Shown here piece by piece: positions 5,346-38,400 of a DNA stretch of 64,000 nt. How positions within the stretch are numbered: the first letter of the stretch is position 1; each line of letters opens with the position of its first letter. Below the pieces are notes generated by a model. It ran no database searches. It was not told the origin of the DNA and worked only from the letters and a program-made list of their open reading frames with translations. This DNA is from Nocardioidaceae bacterium. Lineage in GTDB: Bacteria; Actinomycetota; Actinomycetes; Propionibacteriales; Nocardioidaceae. The DNA is taken from the NCBI GenBank assembly GCA_035297905.1, contig DATGYO010000083.1, forward strand, positions 11,536-75,535, read 5' to 3'. A program made the translations under genes and the position numbers.

Positions 5346-6491
5346 TCACGCGGGCCGGGTGCTCCTCGGGGAGCCTGGCTCAGGATCGTCGGCCACGCGA
5401 GCGTCCGCCTCGACCTCGTCGTGGACCTCCTCGAGCGCCTGGACCCGCTCGTCGTGGTCGGCCGCCTCGTCGTACTCCTGCTCGTCCTCGTCGTCAGCCG
5501 GACCGAACCGGCGCTGCTCGTCGCGGTCGCGACGGAGCCGGGGCAGCATCGCTCGGAGCCGTAGCCGGCGCACGAGCTCCATCCGGGCCCGGGCGGTCTC
5601 GGACTCCGGCCACACCCGGTCGAACGCCGCGTTGACCGCAGCCCCGATCAGCACGGCGATCGAGAGCAGGTACAGCCACAGCAGCACCGCGATCGGTGCG
5701 GCGAGAGGCCCGTAGATGGAGGTGGACTCGCCGGCGGTCGTGGTCAGCACCCACCGCAGGACGAAGGAACCCAGCACCCACATGGCCAGCGTGAGCGTGG
5801 CGCCCGGAAGGTTGTAGCGCCACGAGGTCCGCACCGGGACGGAGGCGTGGTAGAGCGTGGCCAGGAAGCAGATCGAGAGCACCACGACCGCAGGCCAGTA
5901 GAGCTGGTTGACGAACTCGAACCTCGCCGGGACCACCCGTTGCACCAGGGTCGGGCCCGCGACGACCAGCGGGATCGTGACGACGCCGGTGACGAGCCCG
6001 AGGACGTAGAGCACGAAGGAGAGGATCCGGGTCTTGACGATGCCGCGGTGTCCACCGAGGCCGTACATGATCGTGATCGTGTCGACGAAGACGTTCAGCG
6101 CTCTCGAGCCCGACCAGAGGGCGAGCACGAAGCCGATCGAGATCACGTCGTAACGCCCGCCGCGGAAGACGTCGTTGAGCGTGGGCTCGATGATCGTCCG
6201 CACCGTGTCCTCGGTCAGGACACGTGAGGACGCCTCCACGACGGCCGCGCGGACCTCAGCGGTCCGGGCATCGCTGAAGCTCTCGAAGACGTAGCCGATC
6301 GACCCGACCAGCGCGAAGATCAGGGGTGGGAGCGACAGGAGCGCGAAGAAGGCGGCTTCGGCGGCCAGCCCCGTGACCCGGTTCCGGTAGCACGTGCCGA
6401 CCGTGGACACCACGAGACGCCAGGTGGTGTCGCGCACCATCTCCCAGCGGGAAATCTCGGAGGCCGAGCGGCTCCCCGTCTCCCGTGACAT
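5346..6491 (-). CDS. YihY/BrkB (ribonuclease BN-like) family membrane protein
   Basis: Multi-TM protein with 'VTGLAAEAAFFALLSLPPLIFALVGS' and an acidic C-terminal tail. Start chosen at 'MSRETGS'; a later Met is possible. Confidence 0.7.
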   Translation of the reverse strand: MSRETGSRSASEISRWEMVRDTTWRLVVSTVGTCYRNRVTGLAAEAAFFALLSLPPLIFALVGSIGYVFESFSDARTAEVRAAVVEASSRVLTEDTVRTIIEPTLNDVFRGGRYDVISIGFVLALWSGSRALNVFVDTITIMYGLGGHRGIVKTRILSFVLYVLGLVTGVVTIPLVVAGPTLVQRVVPARFEFVNQLYWPAVVVLSICFLATLYHASVPVRTSWRYNLPGATLTLAMWVLGSFVLRWVLTTTAGESTSIYGPLAAPIAVLLWLYLLSIAVLIGAAVNAAFDRVWPESETARARMELVRRLRLRAMLPRLRRDRDEQRRFGPADDEDEQEYDEAADHDERVQALEEVHDEVEADARVADDPEPGSPRSTRPA

Positions 6492-6508
6492 GGAACTACC
6501 GTAACGAC

Positions 6509-8143
6509 ATGCCGATCGATAACCGGGTAGCAACGAACCAGGCCCCGCCACTTGTGGGCTACAACGTCGTGCTGGAAGACCGCGCGCTCGTGGAGGCGGT
6601 CGAGCGGCACGCGTCGCGCGACGTGGTGGAAGACCTCACTGCGCTGGGTGCGATGGCCGGCAGCGAGGAGGCGCGTGAGCACGGCATCCTGGCCAACCGG
6701 TACGAGCCCGAGCTGACCCCGTTCGACCGCTACGGCAACCGGATCGACGAGGTGCGGTTCCACCCGTCCTGGCACTGGCTGATGGAGCGCGGGGTCGGCC
6801 ACGGCCTCCAGGCGGCGCCGTGGGTCTCCGACTCCCCGCACGCCCATGTACGACGAGCGGCCGGCTTCATGGCCTGGTCGCACACCGAGCCCGGACACGG
6901 CTGCCCCATCTCCATGACATACGCCGCGGTGCCTGCCCTGCGCGTCGACGACGCGATCGCGAAGGAGTGGACGCCGCTGCTTGCGTCGACGTCCTACGAC
7001 TTCGGGGTGCGGGCAGCCTCGGAGAAGCGCGGCGCCCTCGCAGGCATGGGCATGACCGAGAAACAGGGCGGCTCCGACGTACGCACGAACGTCACCGAGG
7101 CACGCCCGACCTCCGTGGACGGCGAGTACACCCTGCACGGCCACAAGTGGTTCACCTCCGCACCCATGAACGACGTGTTCCTGGTGCTGGCGCAGGCGCC
7201 CGGAGGCCTCACGTGCTTCCTGGTGCCCCGTGTGCTGGCCGATGGCACCCGAAACCAGCTCGACGTGATGCGCCTGAAGGACAAGCTCGGCAACCGATCG
7301 AACGCCTCCTCCGAGCTCGAGTTCCACGGCACGTGGGCGCAACGCCTCGGCGACGAGGGCCGTGGTGTGCGCACCATCATCGAGATGGTCGCGGCCACCC
7401 GCCTCGACACGGTCCTGGGATCCACCTCGCTGATGCGGCGCGCCGTCGCGGAGGCCTCCTGGCACGTCGCACACCGGTCCGCGTTCGGCGGTGTCCTCGG
7501 CGACAAGCCGCTGATGCAGAACGTGATCGCCGACCTGGCCGTCGAGACCGAGGCGGCGACCGCGCTGGCGATCCGGCTGGCAGCGGCGGTCGACAGCTCC
7601 GCTGACCCGCACGAGGCGGCCTTCCGCAGGATCGCCCTGCCGCTGTCGAAGTTCTGGGTCTGCAAGCGGACGCCGATGATGGTTGCCGAGGCGCTGGAAT
7701 GCCTGGGCGGCAACGGGTACGTCGAGGAGTCGGTGATGCCGCTGCTCTTCCGGGAGTCCCCGCTCAACTCGATCTGGGAAGGGTCGGGCAACGTCAACGC
7801 GCTCGACGTGCTCCGCGCCCTCTCCCGCGAGCCCGAGGCCCTCAACGCCTGGATCGTCGAGGTCGGCAAGGCCCGCGGCGAGGACGAGCGCCTCGACCGG
7901 GCGATCGACGGCGTGCTCGAGCAGCTCGCGGACACGTCGGACCTCGAGTTCCGCGCCCGCCGCCTCGCCGGTCAGATGGCCGCCGTACTCCAGGGGGCGC
8001 TGCTCGTGCAGCACGCTCCCGCCGCCGTCGCAGACGCCTTCTGCGCCACGCGCCTCGGCAACGAGTACGGCGGGACGTTGGGCACGCTCCCCCGCGGCAC
8101 CGATGTCCGCTCGATCGTCGACCGCACCACTCCCGTCCTCTAG
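6509..8143 (+). CDS. Acyl-CoA dehydrogenase family protein, AidB-like
   Basis: About 545 aa. ACAD signature 'GMGMTEKQGGSDV' and C-terminal 'ALECLGGNGYVEES...SIWEGSGNV'. Start is ATG 6509 or GTG 6485. Confidence 0.8.
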   Translation: MPIDNRVATNQAPPLVGYNVVLEDRALVEAVERHASRDVVEDLTALGAMAGSEEAREHGILANRYEPELTPFDRYGNRIDEVRFHPSWHWLMERGVGHGLQAAPWVSDSPHAHVRRAAGFMAWSHTEPGHGCPISMTYAAVPALRVDDAIAKEWTPLLASTSYDFGVRAASEKRGALAGMGMTEKQGGSDVRTNVTEARPTSVDGEYTLHGHKWFTSAPMNDVFLVLAQAPGGLTCFLVPRVLADGTRNQLDVMRLKDKLGNRSNASSELEFHGTWAQRLGDEGRGVRTIIEMVAATRLDTVLGSTSLMRRAVAEASWHVAHRSAFGGVLGDKPLMQNVIADLAVETEAATALAIRLAAAVDSSADPHEAAFRRIALPLSKFWVCKRTPMMVAEALECLGGNGYVEESVMPLLFRESPLNSIWEGSGNVNALDVLRALSREPEALNAWIVEVGKARGEDERLDRAIDGVLEQLADTSDLEFRARRLAGQMAAVLQGALLVQHAPAAVADAFCATRLGNEYGGTLGTLPRGTDVRSIVDRTTPVL

Positions 8144-8195
8144 GCAGATGCGACCGTCGTAGCTCGACAGGCGGGTTGCGCCCGACTCGGGCAGG

Positions 8196-9092
8196 TCACG
8201 CGGCGGCGTCGGCGGCCGACGCCGGGTCTGCCTGTCGAGGTGCGACATCTGCCGCCGCGATGAGGCACTCGCGGACGTAGTCGGGGTAGAACATCACGTC
8301 CTCCCACGCGAACCGGAGCACGCGCCAGTGCAGCAGCACTAGCTTCGTGTACCGCCTGCAGTCGCGCCTCAGAGCGCCGCGCCGGCTGTGCCATGAATGT
8401 GACTCGGCCTCGACGACCCACCGCCTGTTGCAGTCGACCAGGTCGGCCCGGCCACGTCCCTCCTCATCGGCGATGACGACCTGAGGCTTCAGGTCGATTC
8501 CGGGCACGTCGAGGGCGATCGCCCGCAGCACGGACTCGAACGGGTTCGCCGCGAGGTGGGTGGCCTCACGGGTGACCCGGCGTGCCTGCGGAGCACCTGG
8601 CCCAACGATGCCGTCAGCCAGCTGTGCCAGCGGCGCTTTGGTGATGCCTCTGTGCCTCAGCGCCGAGTCCGCCACCGCCAGGGCCTCGTCGAACGGCAGC
8701 GACCTCATGCAGTCGACCAGCGTGCACTCGACCGACGTCACCATGTCGCCCAGCTCGTCAGGCTTCAGATCCGCCCAATGCAGGGCGACGCCGTCGGCCT
8801 GCCCGTCGGCCAGGTGCCGCTTGCGTCGGATGGTGACGTCGGGCAGGTCCGGAACCGTCTTCACCTCCCAGCCCCAGTGCAGTGCGGCGCTTCGGTGCGA
8901 GACCACGCCGGAGAGTCGGTTCGCCGCCCGCCTGGCCTCGTCTGCCACGGGTAGGGCGTAGCGACCGTAGCTGTCGCGGACGATGTCTCCGTGCGCTACT
9001 GCGGCGTCGAAAGCCCTGCGGGAGGAGGCACGGACCAGGCTCGCACGGGTCGCCACGCCGCCGAGCCGGAGGAGGATCTGCGTGAGGGTCAT
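8196..9092 (-). CDS. DUF559-like endonuclease-fold protein with N-terminal wHTH (AbiEi-like)
   Basis: N-terminus 'LLRLGGVATRASLV...HGDIVRDSYGRYAL'. C-terminus 'VVEAESHSWH...LLHWRVLRFAWEDV' resembles the DUF559/Vsr-like fold. Start moved to 'MTLTQ'. Confidence 0.55.
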   Translation of the reverse strand: MTLTQILLRLGGVATRASLVRASSRRAFDAAVAHGDIVRDSYGRYALPVADEARRAANRLSGVVSHRSAALHWGWEVKTVPDLPDVTIRRKRHLADGQADGVALHWADLKPDELGDMVTSVECTLVDCMRSLPFDEALAVADSALRHRGITKAPLAQLADGIVGPGAPQARRVTREATHLAANPFESVLRAIALDVPGIDLKPQVVIADEEGRGRADLVDCNRRWVVEAESHSWHSRRGALRRDCRRYTKLVLLHWRVLRFAWEDVMFYPDYVRECLIAAADVAPRQADPASAADAAA

Positions 9093-35294: not shown

Positions 35295-36395
35295 ATGGTT
35301 ACCCACTCCCTGTCCCGAACACTGGCGGTGACAGCAGGTGTCGCCGTCGTAGGGGCCGCCGCTGCGTCCTTCGCCTTGCTCCCCGCGCAGGCGGGTGACC
35401 ACGGCGGAGGAAGCGACAGCTTCCGAGAGGTCAGGCTCGTCGCCGACAGGCATGGCCAGGCCCGGATCACCGATCCGAAGCTGGTCAACCCCTGGGGCCT
35501 GGCCGCATCCCCCACGAGTCCCCTGTGGGTGTCGAACAACGGCACCAGCACCTCGACGCTCTACCAGGGCGCCACGTCCGGGAAGTCGGTCATGAAGGTG
35601 CCGCTGGACGTGAAGATCCCGGGCGGGGGTGCCCCGACAGGGGTGGTGTACAACCCGACCGACGGTTTCAAGCTCACGAGCGACGGCAAGTCCGGGCCTG
35701 CCCTGTTCATCTTCGCCGGGGAGGACGGTGACATCTCGGCCTGGAACAAGTCCGGCGACATCAAGAAGGCAGTCCTCGTCGCGAAGAGCCGGCACACCAT
35801 CTACAAGGGACTCACCATGGTGAGGACCGGCGGCAAGGAGTACCTGCTCGCGGCGGACTTCCACAACAACCGCGTCGACGTGTTCGACGACCACTTCCAG
35901 CACGTCACGGCGCCGAACGCCTTCAGCAGCAAGCACGTCCCCCACGGCTACGCCCCGTTCGGCATCGCCGACCTCGACGGGCGGGTGTATGTGACATACG
36001 CCAAGCAGGACAAGAACAAGAAGGACGACGTCGCCGGCCCCGGTCACGGCTTCGTCAACGTGTTCGACGAGCGCGGTCGGTTCCGCGAGTCGCTCGTGCG
36101 GCGCGGTGTGCTCGACTCCCCATGGGGGCTGGCGATCGCCCCGCACGGCTCCGGCTCCTTCGCGGGCAAGCTCCTTGTCGGCAACTTCGGCGACGGCCGG
36201 ATCCACGTGGTGGACCAGCACGACGGCCGGGTGGTCGCGACGCTGCTCGGGAAAGGACACCACCCGATCGTGATCGACGGTCTCTGGGGCCTTGTGCCAG
36301 GCAACGGCACCTCGGGCGACAGGTCCGACGTCTGGTTCAGCGCCGGTCCGGACGACGAGTCACACGGACTGCTGGGGATCTTGGAGCAGCGCTGA
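35295..36395 (+). CDS. TIGR03118-family secreted protein (NHL/beta-propeller-like)
   Basis: Signal peptide, then 'LVADRHGQARITDPKLVNPWGLAASPTSPLWVSNNGT' typical of that uncharacterised family. Confidence 0.7.
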   Translation: MVTHSLSRTLAVTAGVAVVGAAAASFALLPAQAGDHGGGSDSFREVRLVADRHGQARITDPKLVNPWGLAASPTSPLWVSNNGTSTSTLYQGATSGKSVMKVPLDVKIPGGGAPTGVVYNPTDGFKLTSDGKSGPALFIFAGEDGDISAWNKSGDIKKAVLVAKSRHTIYKGLTMVRTGGKEYLLAADFHNNRVDVFDDHFQHVTAPNAFSSKHVPHGYAPFGIADLDGRVYVTYAKQDKNKKDDVAGPGHGFVNVFDERGRFRESLVRRGVLDSPWGLAIAPHGSGSFAGKLLVGNFGDGRIHVVDQHDGRVVATLLGKGHHPIVIDGLWGLVPGNGTSGDRSDVWFSAGPDDESHGLLGILEQR

Positions 36396-36410
36396 CCCAG
36401 CCCCGAGGAT

Positions 36411-36459
36411 GACAGCCGTCCGCCGGGACGGGCAGGGGCCGTTCCGGCGAGCGGCTGTC
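36411..36459 (+). terminator. Long hairpin after the TIGR03118-family gene
   Basis: 21-position stem (one mismatch, two G-U pairs) GACAGCCGTCCGCCGGGACGG/CCGTTCCGGCGAGCGGCTGTC with a 7-nt loop. Starts 16 nt after the stop. Confidence 0.6.
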
Positions 36460-36600
36460 GGCGTTCCCTGCGTGCCATCCAGGCTGGGGTCACGTGGTGA
36501 ACCCGTGCATGCGTCCATCGTGGTGCCCGCTTCGGCCGGCACCGGTCGTGTCGACGCGGAGACGCGTGCATCGCGGTGCGCAACAGTGCAGGGTGGCCCC

Positions 36601-38400
36601 ATGTACTTCGTCGGCGTCGACCTCGCGTGGGGTCAGGAGAAGCCCAGCGGTGTGGCGGTCGTCGATGACGACGGCCGACTGCTCCACGTGTCGGCACAAC
36701 GCAGCGACGAAGAGATCATCGGCTCGCTGAAGCCCTTCGTGAACTCCGAATGCCTTGTCGCGATCGACGCCCCGCTGGTCGTGGAGAACGCCACCGGCAA
36801 CCGGGACTGCGAGGCGGCGCTCAACCGCGACTTCGCACGTTTCGACGCCGGTGCGCATCCTTCCAACACAGGCAGACCCGAGTTCGCCGTAGGACCGCGG
36901 GGTGCCCGGCTGGCCGACACACTCGGCCTGGACATGGATCCCTCGTCGCGGTCCCGTCGGCGCGCCATCGAGGTCTACCCGCATCCCGCGACCATCGCGC
37001 TGTTCGGTCTCGGACGGACGCTGAAGTACAAGCACAAGCCCGGCCGACGGCTGTCGCAGCTCCAGTCGGAGCTGCTTCGCCTCATGGCGCTGCTCGAAGG
37101 ACTGAAGGACTTCCCGGTCCCGTTGTACGTCGACGTCCACGAGGAGTGGAAGGCTCTCACGCGCCAGGTCGAGTCCGCAGCACGCAAGAGCGACCTACGT
37201 CGAGCCGAGGACCAGGTCGACGCGGTGGTGTGCGCCTACGTCGCGATGTTCGCCGAGCGTCGGCCCGACCTCACCACGACCTACGGCGACTTCCGCTCGG
37301 GGTACATCGTCACGCCGACCCTTCCCCCTGGGCACCAACCGTCACCACGGCTGCGGCGGGCTGCCGATGAGCCCGCCGAAGCCACGGTGGACGAGGATCC
37401 CGTCCGCCGGGCAGTGCGGATGTACGCCGAGATCCAGCCCGAGCTCCGCGAGGTGACGAGCCGGATGGTCGGCCTGGTCACCACGCTCCTCGACGACGCC
37501 GGCATCAACTACCTGAGTGTCACCGGACGAGCGAAGAGCGTCGCGTCCTTCGCGGCCAAGGCCGAGCGGAGCCTGGACGGCCGCCCCCTCTACACGGATC
37601 CCATGGAGGAGATCACCGATCAGGTCGGCCTCCGTGTGATCACCTACCTGCACAGCGACGTCGCGGCCGTCGCGGACCTGCTGGGCGACCAGTTCAAGGT
37701 TCTCGACGACCGGGACATGGGTCAGGAGACCGCGAGGCAGGGACGGTTCGGCTATGCGAGCAGACATCTCCTGGTTGCCCCCGATGCGACGCGGAGCACG
37801 CCTGCGGCGTACGAGGCGCTCGGTGAGCGATGTGCCCAGGTCCAGGTACGCACCGTCCTCCAGCACGCGTGGGCCGAGTTCGAGCACGCGATCCGCTACA
37901 AGGGGACGATCCCCGAGGAGCACGTGCCGGACCTCGACCGGCGGTTCACCCTCGCCGCGGGACTCCTCGAGCTCGCCGACCGCGAGTTCTCGTTGATCCG
38001 CGACCGGTTGCAGGCCACCGTCACGGACCAGCGGCTCGAGGAGGACGTCAGTGACCCGCGGATCAGTCCCCAGGAGCTTGCCGCGTTCCTCGCCGGCAAG
38101 TACGCCGACGCCGGCTGGTCGCGACCTGACCACTACGCATGGGTCTCGGGGTTGCTCCTGGAGCTGGGCGTGACCTCGCTCGACGAGCTCGCCGGCCTCC
38201 TCACCTCCGTGGACGGCGAGATGATCAACGCCCGGATGGCCTACCGGTACCCACCCGGTGCAGTCCGCCGGCTCGACGACGCGCTGCTGGCGATCTTCGG
38301 TGCTCGCTACCTGGAGCTCGACGGGAACTCACACCGCGAGGCTCTGTTGCGGACCCGCCTCGAGAAGCTGCGTATGCCGACCCAGCACCCTGAGCGGTGA
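36601..38400 (+). CDS. DUF429 (RNase H-fold) / RelA-SpoT synthetase-type nucleotidyltransferase fusion protein
   Basis: Continuous 599-codon frame from ATG 36601. The N-terminal half ('MYFVGVDLAWG', 'VAIDAPLVVENATGNRDCE', 'IEVYPHPA') is DUF429-like. The C-terminal half carries 'GRAKSVASFAAK', 'DQVGLRVITY', 'GYASRHLLV' and 'VQVRTVLQHAWAEFEHAIRYK'. Confidence 0.75.
   Translation: MYFVGVDLAWGQEKPSGVAVVDDDGRLLHVSAQRSDEEIIGSLKPFVNSECLVAIDAPLVVENATGNRDCEAALNRDFARFDAGAHPSNTGRPEFAVGPRGARLADTLGLDMDPSSRSRRRAIEVYPHPATIALFGLGRTLKYKHKPGRRLSQLQSELLRLMALLEGLKDFPVPLYVDVHEEWKALTRQVESAARKSDLRRAEDQVDAVVCAYVAMFAERRPDLTTTYGDFRSGYIVTPTLPPGHQPSPRLRRAADEPAEATVDEDPVRRAVRMYAEIQPELREVTSRMVGLVTTLLDDAGINYLSVTGRAKSVASFAAKAERSLDGRPLYTDPMEEITDQVGLRVITYLHSDVAAVADLLGDQFKVLDDRDMGQETARQGRFGYASRHLLVAPDATRSTPAAYEALGERCAQVQVRTVLQHAWAEFEHAIRYKGTIPEEHVPDLDRRFTLAAGLLELADREFSLIRDRLQATVTDQRLEEDVSDPRISPQELAAFLAGKYADAGWSRPDHYAWVSGLLLELGVTSLDELAGLLTSVDGEMINARMAYRYPPGAVRRLDDALLAIFGARYLELDGNSHREALLRTRLEKLRMPTQHPER

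What the first reader, a model, noticed from the sequence alone, without database searches (positions are those of the whole stretch)
36601..38400. Monocistronic fusion of a DUF429 RNase-H-fold domain to a RelA/SpoT synthetase-type domain
Seen directly: this is one uninterrupted 599-codon frame. The N-terminal ~250 aa ('MYFVGVDLAWG', 'VAIDAPLVVENATGNRDCEAALN', 'IEVYPHPA') resemble the DUF429/COG4328 predicted RNase-H-fold nuclease family. After a Pro/Arg linker, the C-terminal half carries the RelA/SpoT nucleotidyltransferase motifs in canonical order: 'GRAKSVASFAAK', 'DQVGLRVITY', 'GYASRHLLV', 'VQVRTVLQHAWAEFEHAIRYK'. A ~170-aa helical tail follows. I see no HD hydrolase, TGS or ACT domains. 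The Glu of the canonical E-x-Q-x-R-T synthetase motif reads as Gln here ('AQVQVRT'), so the chemistry may differ from (p)ppGpp synthesis. The gene is insulated by a 21-bp terminator hairpin upstream (36411-36459) and a convergent WS/DGAT gene downstream. Established knowledge: stand-alone RSH synthetase domains include housekeeping small alarmone synthetases. They also include toxic or defensive enzymes (toxSAS, CapRel-type) that pyrophosphorylate nucleotides or tRNA 3' ends. Inference: pairing such a domain with a nuclease-fold domain suggests a self-contained stress or phage-defence effector, or a nucleic-acid-directed pyrophosphokinase. I do not know of this architecture having been characterised.
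Basis: partly seen in the sequence, partly recalled or inferred. Interest (0 to 1): 0.72.

Follow-up and report, generated by a model that had tools for sequence, protein, structure and literature searches.

The report
RelZ-type nuclease–alarmone synthetase gene
This gene is a genuine fusion of an RNase-H-like nuclease domain to a small alarmone-synthetase domain, but it is an ordinary actinobacterial copy of RelZ, a two-domain enzyme already studied in Mycobacterium smegmatis.

Summary
Window 36601-38400 (+) is one uninterrupted 599-codon gene. Pfam finds DUF429 at aa 5-220 and RelA_SpoT at aa 309-435, followed by a helical tail. No HD, TGS or ACT domain is present.

The interpretation that the architecture is uncharacterised is wrong. 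The protein is 62% identical and 73% similar over aa 2-591 to M. smegmatis MSMEG_5849. That protein is RelZ, also called MS_RHII-RSD, which NCBI names "bifunctional ribonuclease/(p)ppGpp synthase". [quoted passage not shown] The DUF429 fusion was noted in print in 2011, 2014 and 2017.

Full-length homologues occur in at least 589 actinobacterial species genomes. None occurs on any plasmid or phage record searched, and there is no conserved neighbour or defence context.

The Glu-to-Gln change in the synthetase motif is real and clade-wide. It is Gln in the Nocardioidaceae-type proteins and Ser in the mycobacterial ones, including RelZ itself. No Glu occurs among about 240 fusions.

Closely related DUF429 domains are fused to SIR2 or HNH effectors in defence-like loci. 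A defence or altered-chemistry role therefore remains a low-probability possibility.

Verdict: new member of a known kind, low interest.

The parts
36601..38400 (+). relZ-like gene: 599 codons plus stop, encoding a DUF429 RNase-H-like domain fused to a RelA/SpoT synthetase domain
   Evidence: Uninterrupted translation. Both Pfam domains. 62% identity over aa 2-591 to M. smegmatis RelZ P0515.
36613..37260 (+). DUF429 (PF04250) RNase-H-like, RuvC-type nuclease domain, aa 5-220. Acidic residues D7, D56, E71, E203, D204 and D207 are invariant.
   Evidence: Pfam E=1.6e-29. PADLOC PDC-S44 model E=9e-84. Residues invariant in 30 fusion proteins and in stand-alone relatives. AF2 N-domain model has pLDDT 84.8 and pTM 0.89, with strand/helix order b1-b2-b3-a1-b4. 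The weak best PDB matches are RuvC, TEFM and terminase nuclease domains.
37321..37398 (+). Pro/Arg-rich inter-domain linker, about aa 241-266. Variable in length and sequence; predicted disordered.
   Evidence: Variable, gapped columns in the alignments. pLDDT below 50 at aa 252-264.
37399..38019 (+). Small-alarmone-synthetase (RelA_SpoT/SYNTH) fold, about aa 267-473. The Pfam core is aa 309-435.
   Evidence: Pfam E=6.9e-15. PDB sequence hits to SAS1/RelQ 5DEC, 5DED and 5F2V. Foldseek best hits are RelQ/RelP at E=1e-9 to 1e-6.
37837..37854 (+). Syn4 motif QVQVRT (aa 413-418). The canonical catalytic Glu is replaced by Gln413.
   Evidence: Aligned to EIQIRT of B. subtilis SAS1. The position is Gln in 117 and Ser in 2 of 119 window-type fusions. 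It is Ser in 119 of 119 mycobacterial fusions, including RelZ. It is never Glu.
38020..38397 (+). Conserved helical C-terminal tail, about aa 474-599, with no Pfam family. It is shared with stand-alone actRel/RelS-like synthetases.
   Evidence: No Pfam hit. Helices H490-591 in the AF2 model. Highly conserved in the fusions. Present in stand-alone 330-360 aa relatives P0141, P0169 and P0208.
36411..36459 (+). GC-rich hairpin with a stem of about 21 bp, lying 16 nt after the stop of the upstream TIGR03118-family gene. Possibly a terminator of that gene; it has no T-tract.
   Evidence: RNA fold of 36396-36600. Not called by the intrinsic-terminator scan. The upstream gene is identified as TIGR03118.

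Best explanation
The gene encodes an orthologue of RelZ (MS_RHII-RSD) in a Nocardioidaceae-like actinomycete. RelZ is the dual-domain member of the actinobacterial 'actRel' group of small alarmone synthetases.

Shown here:
- It has the same two-domain architecture plus tail as M. smegmatis RelZ.
- It is collinear with RelZ at 62% identity over the full length.
- The putative nuclease acidic residues and synthetase motifs Syn1-3 and Syn5 are conserved.
- It is chromosomal, has native composition, stands alone, and is widespread in Actinomycetota.

Inferred by homology from published work on RelZ:
- The C-terminal domain transfers pyrophosphate from ATP to GMP, GDP and GTP (in that order of preference), giving pGpp, ppGpp and pppGpp.
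- Both activities need the full-length oligomer (a hexamer).
- ssRNA and pppGpp inhibit synthesis.

On this model, the protein couples R-loop removal with alarmone signalling during replication-transcription or UV/antibiotic stress. The Gln (or Ser in RelZ) in place of the Syn4 Glu is a clade trait. It may underlie the Mg2+-independent synthetase activity reported for RelZ.
For: - establish the ORF and its domains.
- 62% identity and 73% similarity over aa 2-591 to M. smegmatis RelZ (P0515; ABK73957.1 / I7FLE5). P0515 was identified by name.
- 62% identity to the M. tusciae protein. The review PMC7591505 lists that protein as an RHII-RSD orthologue.
- NCBI names the mycobacterial proteins 'bifunctional ribonuclease/(p)ppGpp synthase'.
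- hundreds of full-length homologues.
- D7, D56, E71, E203, D204 and D207 are invariant, as are the GRxKS, DQxGxR, GYASRH and QHAWAEFEH..RYK motifs.
- Searches give the published descriptions and biochemistry of RelZ and the DUF429 fusion.
- the synthetase domain is nearest to RelQ/RelP.
- the gene is not mobile, not in a defence context, and has native GC3.
Against: - No biochemistry exists for this protein or for any Nocardioidaceae member. All function is transferred from one enzyme at 62% identity.
- The Syn4 Glu is stated to be essential for ppGpp synthesis in Rel_Mtb (E325). It is absent from the whole clade, so the published synthetase activity lacks a canonical catalytic explanation.
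- The window-type proteins carry an 11-residue insertion between Syn3 and Syn4 that RelZ lacks.
- By fold, the N-domain is RuvC-like and not a member of the RNase HII family. 'RNase HII' is therefore a functional label only.
- A M. smegmatis rel relZ double mutant reportedly still makes (p)ppGpp, and RelZ is described as a minor contributor.
Confidence: 0.8

Rival explanations
1. It is an anti-phage or abortive-infection effector. On this view the DUF429 domain senses or cuts invader nucleic acid, and the RelA/SpoT domain acts like a toxSAS or CapRel enzyme, pyrophosphorylating tRNA 3' ends or adenine nucleotides to arrest growth.
For: - The N-domain scores 279 bits (E=9e-84) on PADLOC defence candidate PDC-S44. 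The RSD domain weakly hits PDC-S33. RelZ itself behaves the same way.
- The closest DUF429 relatives (44-54% identity) are fused to swapped effector domains: HNH, REase-ARP, ThsA-like SIR2 and DUF4268/PDC-S11.
- Two of those fusions sit in defence-like loci. One is next to GmrSD_N. The other is next to an integrase and a PLD-helicase-DUF3427 protein.
- The canonical catalytic Glu is missing.
Against: - None of the 10 neighbouring genes hits PADLOC.
- No antitoxin-like or other conserved partner gene is found across 81 loci.
- The full fusion is absent from 72,556 plasmid and 50,697 phage records.
- GC and GC3 are native.
- Conservation of 60-85% identity across several actinobacterial orders, with synteny retained within lineages, looks like vertical inheritance.
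- The fold is closer to RelQ/RelP (E about 1e-9) than to CapRel (E about 1e-5).
- PDC-S44 is an untested candidate with no experimental paper found.
- Published relZ knockouts are viable and show stress phenotypes.
Confidence: 0.08
2. The synthetase-like domain is catalytically degenerate or repurposed. Having lost the Syn4 Glu, it would mainly bind nucleotides, alarmones or ssRNA and allosterically control the DUF429 nuclease. The protein would then be chiefly an R-loop or nucleic-acid nuclease with a regulatory RSD module.
For: - Glu is absent at Syn4 in all sampled fusions, about 240 in total. Complete stand-alone RSD+tail relatives keep Glu.
- Published data say that ssRNA and pppGpp bind and inhibit RelZ and that the two domains are interdependent.
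- The related M. tuberculosis SAS Rv1366 is reported to be inactive.
- RelZ is a minor contributor to alarmone pools.
Against: - RelZ, with Ser at this position, is reported to synthesise pGpp, ppGpp and pppGpp in vitro, with measured Km values.
- All other synthetase motifs are under strong purifying selection: GRxKS, DQxGxR, GYASRH, xQxRT and QHAWAEFEH.
Confidence: 0.1
3. The fusion is an artefact: two adjacent genes joined by a sequencing frameshift or a mis-assembly.
For: Several metagenomic 50%-cluster representatives of this family are visibly frameshifted. Such errors therefore do occur in this GC-rich gene.
Against: The window frame is intact. It is collinear residue by residue with hundreds of independent full-length proteins from isolates and MAGs, including complete genomes.
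Confidence: 0.01

Closest known systems
RelZ / MS_RHII-RSD (MSMEG_5849) of Mycolicibacterium smegmatis, which NCBI names 'bifunctional ribonuclease/(p)ppGpp synthase'
   Same: The architecture is identical: DUF429, linker, RelA_SpoT synthetase, conserved helical tail. The two proteins share 62% identity and 73% similarity over aa 2-591. The same invariant acidic residues and Syn motifs are present, and both lack the Syn4 Glu. Both are stand-alone chromosomal genes in Actinomycetota.
   Different: The window protein is 599 aa against 567 aa. It has a longer Pro/Arg linker and an 11-residue insertion between Syn3 and Syn4. It has Gln rather than Ser at the Syn4 first position. Its genomic neighbourhood differs: purB and a permease flank the gene in mycobacteria, whereas TIGR03118 and WS/DGAT flank it here. 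No experimental data exist for this clade.
actRel / RelS small alarmone synthetases without the nuclease domain (C. glutamicum RelS, M. tuberculosis Rv1366)
   Same: They share the synthetase core plus the C-terminal helical tail. Stand-alone 330-410 aa relatives align to window aa 266-591 at 37-51% identity. They are restricted to Actinobacteria.
   Different: They have no DUF429 domain. The complete stand-alone relatives sampled mostly retain the canonical Syn4 Glu (EIQVRT), unlike the fusion clade.
RelQ/RelP (SAS1/SAS2) of Firmicutes
   Same: These are the nearest solved structures to the C-terminal domain. The order of the Syn motifs is the same.
   Different: They are single-domain homotetramers of about 210-230 aa with EIQIRT. 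The window protein scores far below the NCBIfam YjbM equivalog cut-off (50 against 320 bits).
PADLOC phage-defence candidate PDC-S44 and DUF429-effector fusions (DUF429+SIR2, +HNH, +REase-ARP, +DUF4268)
   Same: The N-terminal DUF429 subtype is the same, at 255-288 bits on the same HMM and 44-56% identity.
   Different: Those proteins are stand-alone or carry nuclease or NADase effectors, and two of them sit in defence-like loci. The relZ-type gene carries an alarmone-synthetase domain and sits in housekeeping contexts. The defence role of PDC-S44 is itself untested.
Fused toxSAS CapRel (tRNA pyrophosphokinase defence protein)
   Same: It is a single polypeptide with a RelA/SpoT synthetase-fold domain plus an extra regulatory domain. 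Foldseek match E is about 1e-5.
   Different: CapRel has a C-terminal antitoxin/sensor domain and no nuclease domain. It is prophage or mobile-element associated. The structural match is weaker than the match to RelQ/RelP. No PADLOC CapRel-type hit was found.

Membership tests
RelZ / MS_RHII-RSD (dual-domain actRel SAS) | N-terminal DUF429 (COG4328) RNase-H-like domain | tested here: met
   PF04250 at aa 5-220, E=1.6e-29. The fold model is consistent.
RelZ / MS_RHII-RSD (dual-domain actRel SAS) | C-terminal RelA/SpoT synthetase domain on the same polypeptide, without HD, TGS or ACT | tested here: met
   PF04607 at aa 309-435 and no other Pfam hit. Single ORF.
RelZ / MS_RHII-RSD (dual-domain actRel SAS) | Full-length collinear homology to the characterised M. 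smegmatis protein MSMEG_5849 | tested here: met
   BLASTP gives 62% identity and 73% positives for query 2-591 against subject 6-566 of 567. Identity to the M. tusciae orthologue is also 62%.
RelZ / MS_RHII-RSD (dual-domain actRel SAS) | Actinobacterial chromosomal gene | tested here: met
   All named homologues are Actinomycetota. No plasmid or phage copy was found. Window GC is 0.69.
RelZ / MS_RHII-RSD (dual-domain actRel SAS) | [quoted passage not shown] | not testable with these tools
   The only evidence here is conservation of the putative catalytic D7, D56, E71, E203, D204 and D207. The activity is known from the literature on RelZ.
RelZ / MS_RHII-RSD (dual-domain actRel SAS) | Synthesis of pGpp, ppGpp and pppGpp from ATP plus GMP, GDP or GTP | not testable with these tools
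   Motifs Syn1-3 and Syn5 are conserved, and Syn4 reads QVQVRT. The activity is reported for RelZ, which has SIQVRT.
RelZ / MS_RHII-RSD (dual-domain actRel SAS) | Hexameric full-length enzyme with interdependent domains | not tested
   Only a monomer model was made. The inter-domain geometry is unreliable (pTM 0.46).
Canonical small alarmone synthetases (RelQ/RelP/YjbM type) | Complete Syn4 motif E-x-Q-x-R-T with the catalytic Glu | tested here: not met
   Gln413 aligns to the Glu of EIQIRT in 5DEC. No Glu occurs in any sampled fusion.
Canonical small alarmone synthetases (RelQ/RelP/YjbM type) | Score above the NCBIfam equivalog cut-off (NF053588) | tested here: not met
   50.4 bits against a cut-off of 320.
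toxSAS / CapRel-type toxic or defensive RSH | Adjacent antitoxin gene or fused antitoxin/sensor domain; mobile-element or defence-island context | tested here: not met
   No conserved neighbour in 81 loci. No PADLOC hit among 10 neighbours. No phage or plasmid copy. The fold is nearer to RelQ/RelP than to CapRel.
toxSAS / CapRel-type toxic or defensive RSH | Growth-arresting pyrophosphorylation of tRNA or adenine nucleotides | not testable with these tools
   This requires biochemistry or a toxicity assay.
RNase HII family proper (RnhB, PF01351) | Sequence or fold membership of the RNase HII family | tested here: not met
   No RNase_HII Pfam hit at E<=1. The best structural neighbours are RuvC, TEFM and terminase nucleases, not RNase HI or HII. 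Majorek 2014 places DUF429 in the RuvC/YqgF clade D.
PADLOC phage-defence candidate PDC-S44 | Match to the PDC-S44 HMM | tested here: met
   PDLC05019 at E=9.2e-84, aa 1-244 against 7-253 of 259 model positions. This covers the N-domain only.
PADLOC phage-defence candidate PDC-S44 | Location among defence genes, and a demonstrated anti-phage phenotype | tested here: not met
   The context requirement is not met. The phenotype is untested anywhere in the literature searched.

The most novel reading that the evidence does not exclude
RelZ-type proteins may not primarily be (p)ppGpp synthetases. Three observations together leave this open. First, the Syn4 catalytic Glu is lost across the clade: Gln in window-type proteins, Ser in mycobacterial ones, and never Glu. 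Second, the N-domain is a RuvC-like nuclease rather than an RNase HII. Third, the same DUF429 subtype serves as a swappable N-terminal module on SIR2, HNH and REase effectors in defence-like loci. On this reading the family would be a nucleic-acid-triggered effector with altered pyrophosphokinase chemistry. Examples would be pyrophosphorylation of nucleic-acid 3' ends, or synthesis of a non-canonical nucleotide. The role would be genome-conflict or phage defence, and the reported in vitro alarmone synthesis would be a side activity.
Probability: 0.1. Interest if true: 0.65.

Novelty: new member of a known kind. Interest (0 to 1): 0.2.

Why it matters
As it stands, this matters little. It is an annotation upgrade. 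Proteins labelled only "DUF429 domain-containing protein" in Nocardioidaceae and related families can be named RelZ-type bifunctional ribonuclease/(pp)pGpp synthetases. The reviews I read discuss dual-domain RelZ orthologues almost only in environmental mycobacteria, with one passing mention of Marmoricola in Ruwe 2017. Here the family is seen in at least 589 species-level genomes across several actinobacterial orders.

Two side observations could interest RSH specialists:
- The whole dual-domain clade, including the biochemically studied RelZ, lacks the Syn4 Glu that is considered essential in Rel enzymes. This bears on the unusual Mg2+-independent activity reported for RelZ.
- The RelZ nuclease domain belongs to a DUF429 subtype that elsewhere is combined with classical defence effectors.

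Tried and rejected
- Frameshift or mis-assembly. Rejected: the frame is intact and collinear with hundreds of homologues.
- Upstream TTG 36292 as the start. Rejected from homologue N-termini.
- Searching with the M. phlei 249-aa protein P0155, hoping to reach M. smegmatis RelZ. This returned only stand-alone mycobacterial DUF429 proteins and cost one search. RelZ was reached instead by a longer route: the genome scan, then the M. neglectum ORF, then a homologue search, then a cluster look-up.
- Several 50%-cluster representatives that looked like divergent fusions (P0124, P0126, P0139, P0143, P0145, P0176, P0250). They proved to be frameshifted metagenomic calls and were discarded.
- A conserved operon partner or antitoxin. 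None found, either by ORF clustering (at most 6 of 81 loci share a neighbour) or by tblastx of the flanks (median 4 loci).
- A canonical intrinsic terminator or sigma-70 promoter around the gene. None found.
- The primary RelZ papers (PMC3416543, PMC6941523, PMC6941529). They are not held. The biochemistry is therefore cited from reviews.
- A literature search for DUF429. It is contaminated by DUF4297 hits.
- PDC-S44. No functional paper was found.
- Full-length fold search. It returned only synthetase-domain hits, so the N-domain was modelled and searched separately.
Full report
**1. Observation**

Window 36601-38400 on the + strand translates without interruption into 599 residues plus a stop codon. 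The reading frame stays open upstream to a TTG at 36292. Every homologue nevertheless starts M-[YH]-[FY]-x-G-x-DLAWG, so ATG 36601 is the start.

Pfam finds exactly two domains:
- DUF429 (PF04250) at aa 5-220, E=1.6e-29.
- RelA_SpoT (PF04607) at aa 309-435, E=6.9e-15.

No HD, TGS or ACT domain is detected. NCBIfam gives only a sub-threshold YjbM match, 50 bits against a cut-off of 320.

An alignment to B. subtilis SAS1 (PDB 5DEC, 5DED, 5F2V) shows the synthetase motifs in order. It also shows that Gln413 occupies the position of the Glu in EIQIRT.

The hairpin at 36411-36459 is real, with a stem of about 21 bp lying 16 nt after the stop of the upstream TIGR03118-family gene. It has no T-tract, and the terminator scan does not call it. 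The downstream convergent gene is WS/DGAT.

**2. The fusion is real and common**

The 120 best hits among 5.8 billion proteins are all about 580-640 aa long. They carry both Pfam domains and are 71-85% identical over the full length. Where named, they come from Nocardioidaceae, Actinopolymorpha or Kineosporiaceae.

The best 80 all cover query aa 1 to about 591 at 60-80% identity. They come from:
- Nocardioides, Marmoricola and Mumia
- Jiangellaceae
- Ornithinimicrobium, Intrasporangium and Georgenia
- Angustibacter and Kineosporiaceae
- Raineyella
- five mycobacterial genomes

A frameshift artefact is excluded.

**3. What it is**

The literature search shows that the architecture is known.
- Atkinson et al. 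2011 defined the actinobacterial SAS subgroup 'actRel'. They noted that M. smegmatis, M. gilvum and M. vanbaalenii members carry an N-terminal DUF429.
- Majorek et al. 2014 placed DUF429 in the RNase-H-like superfamily, in clade D with RuvC, YqgF and the terminases. They noted RelA/SpoT fusions in Actinobacteria.
- Ruwe et al. 2017 noted the fusion in Mycobacterium and in Marmoricola, which is a Nocardioidaceae genus.

The M. smegmatis protein MSMEG_5849 is known as MS_RHII-RSD and was later renamed RelZ. According to the reviews it:
- synthesises pGpp, ppGpp and pppGpp, preferring GMP over GDP over GTP;
- is a hexamer whose two domains are inactive when separated;
- is inhibited by ssRNA and pppGpp;
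- is induced by UV.

I retrieved mycobacterial members from the genome scan and used one as a query. NCBI names these proteins 'bifunctional ribonuclease/(p)ppGpp synthase'. I then found the M. smegmatis mc2155 protein itself by a cluster look-up (P0515; ABK73957.1 / I7FLE5).

The window protein is 62% identical and 73% similar to it over aa 2-591, against aa 6-566 of 567. It is also 62% identical to the M. tusciae protein, which the review lists as an orthologue. This is membership of the RelZ family by every feature testable in silico.

**4. Anatomy and conservation**

In a 30-sequence alignment of 14 window-type and 16 mycobacterial proteins, several features are invariant:
- the acidic residues D7, D56, E71, E203, D204 and D207;
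- the synthetase motifs GRxKS, DQxGxR, GYASRH and QHAWAEFEH..RYK.

The linker, about aa 241-266, is variable. It is predicted to be disordered.

The full-length AF2 model has mean pLDDT 81.7 and pTM 0.46, so the relative orientation of the domains is unreliable. It shows an alpha/beta N-domain, the SAS fold and a helical tail. Foldseek places the C-domain nearest RelQ/RelP, with E from 1e-9 to 1e-6. CapRel and the long Rel enzymes match more weakly, at about 1e-5.

A separate N-domain model has pLDDT 84.8 and pTM 0.89. It has the RNase-H-like strand order, with D7 at the end of strand 1 and D56 at the end of strand 4. Its best PDB neighbours are weak: the TEFM RuvC-like domain, T. thermophilus RuvC, phage terminase nucleases, phage RuvC and Tex. 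None is an RNase HI or HII. 'RNase HII' in the RelZ literature therefore describes an activity, not a family.

The tail, about aa 474-599, has no Pfam family. It is shared with stand-alone 330-410 aa actRel/RelS-like proteins.

**5. The Glu-to-Gln point**

The substitution is not peculiar to this gene. The first residue of Syn4 among full-length fusions is:
- Gln in 117 and Ser in 2 of the 119 window-type proteins;
- Ser in 119 of 119 mycobacterial proteins.

It is never Glu. RelZ itself reads ASIQVRT.

Complete stand-alone relatives of 336-411 aa mostly keep EIQVRT or EVQVRT. A few short ones, such as P0141, have Ser.

A review states that E325 of Rel_Mtb is essential. However, the one characterised clade member lacks the Glu and is still reported to make (pp)pGpp. 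Its activity is reported to be independent of Mg2+. I could not find this point discussed in the searchable literature, and the primary papers are not held.

**6. Context and mobility**

The neighbours in the window are a LytR_cpsA_psr protein, a ferric-reductase-like protein, an MFS sugar transporter, a TIGR03118 protein, WS/DGAT, an ArAE/FUSC exporter and an amidohydrolase. None of them hits PADLOC.

Across 81 homologous loci no flanking gene is conserved.
- At most 6 loci share a neighbour cluster.
- By tblastx, the median locus shares flank homology with 4 others. The window shares only with L004.
- Synteny persists only within close lineages. An example is purB upstream in mycobacteria.

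No plasmid record (72,556 searched) and no phage record (50,697 searched) carries the fusion. GC and GC3 of the gene match its neighbours, and there is no paralogue in the window. This is the profile of a vertically inherited, stand-alone chromosomal gene, not of a defence island or a toxin-antitoxin module.

**7. The residual defence lead**

The N-domain scores 279 bits on PADLOC candidate PDC-S44. So do RelZ and the stand-alone mycobacterial DUF429 proteins.

The nearest DUF429 relatives, at 44-54% identity, occur fused to other domains:
- HNH, together with a ScoMcrA-type DNA-binding domain;
- REase-ARP;
- a ThsA-like SIR2;
- DUF4268/PDC-S11.

Two of these fusions lie in defence-like loci. 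One is next to GmrSD_N. The other is next to an integrase and a PLD-helicase-DUF3427 protein. This modularity is typical of defence proteins. It concerns paralogous fusions, however, and PDC-S44 has no experimental support that I could find.

**8. Verdict**

The finding is a correctly described gene. It is a new member, from a Nocardioidaceae-like lineage, of the already characterised RelZ/MS_RHII-RSD family.

The mechanism is inferred by homology: RNA:DNA-hybrid and R-loop nuclease activity, plus (pp)pGpp synthesis, in one oligomeric enzyme. I put 0.8 on the combined statement. Family membership alone is about 0.95. Transfer of the function is less certain. The evidence rests on a single enzyme at 62% identity, and the catalytic Glu is missing from the whole clade.

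Novelty is 'new member of a known kind' and interest is 0.2. The most novel reading still allowed is altered chemistry or a conflict-related role for the whole RelZ clade. I give it about 0.1.

Noticed in passing
window 37837-37839 (Gln413); P0515 (M. smegmatis RelZ); alignment A4: The whole DUF429-RSD clade lacks the canonical Syn4 catalytic Glu. It is Gln in 117 and Ser in 2 of 119 window-type proteins, and Ser in 119 of 119 mycobacterial proteins, including the biochemically studied RelZ. Complete stand-alone RSD+tail relatives mostly keep Glu. I found no discussion of this in the searchable literature.
   Followed up: partly
P0153, P0182, P0234, P0254; loci L082 3975-6383 and L083 6001-7671: The DUF429 subtype closest to the RelZ N-domain (44-54% identity, same PADLOC PDC-S44 HMM) is fused in other proteins to a ThsA-like SIR2, to a ScoMcrA-type DNA-binding domain plus HNH, to REase-ARP, or to DUF4268/PDC-S11. 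The SIR2 fusion lies next to a GmrSD_N gene. The HNH fusion lies next to an integrase and a PLD-helicase-DUF3427 gene. This is a modular, defence-like pattern.
   Followed up: partly
L060 (Mycolicibacterium moriokaense) 6001-7734 and 7770-8609: In M. moriokaense, a stand-alone 279-aa DUF429 paralogue lies immediately downstream of the relZ-type gene, on the same strand and 36 nt after it. Many mycobacteria also encode stand-alone DUF429 proteins of about 285 aa. Some of these are mis-annotated as 'GTP pyrophosphokinase'.
   Followed up: no
window 35295-36395 (+): The upstream gene encodes a TIGR03118-family protein (E=1e-106; NHL/beta-propeller-like, function unknown) with an N-terminal signal-like segment. 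It is the only window neighbour that is also adjacent to relZ in another locus (L004).
   Followed up: no
P0124, P0126, P0139, P0143, P0145, P0176, P0250: Several 50%-identity cluster representatives of this family in the metagenome protein library are frameshifted translations. They show Arg/Pro-rich out-of-frame stretches in the middle of otherwise good alignments. They inflate the apparent diversity of the family.
   Followed up: yes
window aa 396-409 of the protein (about 37786-37827): The window-type (Nocardioidaceae-like) proteins carry an insertion of about 11 residues (TRSTPAAYEALGE) between Syn3 and Syn4. It is absent from all 16 mycobacterial RelZ-type proteins aligned, and its significance is unknown.
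   Followed up: no
P0224 (528 aa): One relative consists of two tandem RelA_SpoT synthetase domains in a single polypeptide and has no DUF429.
   Followed up: no
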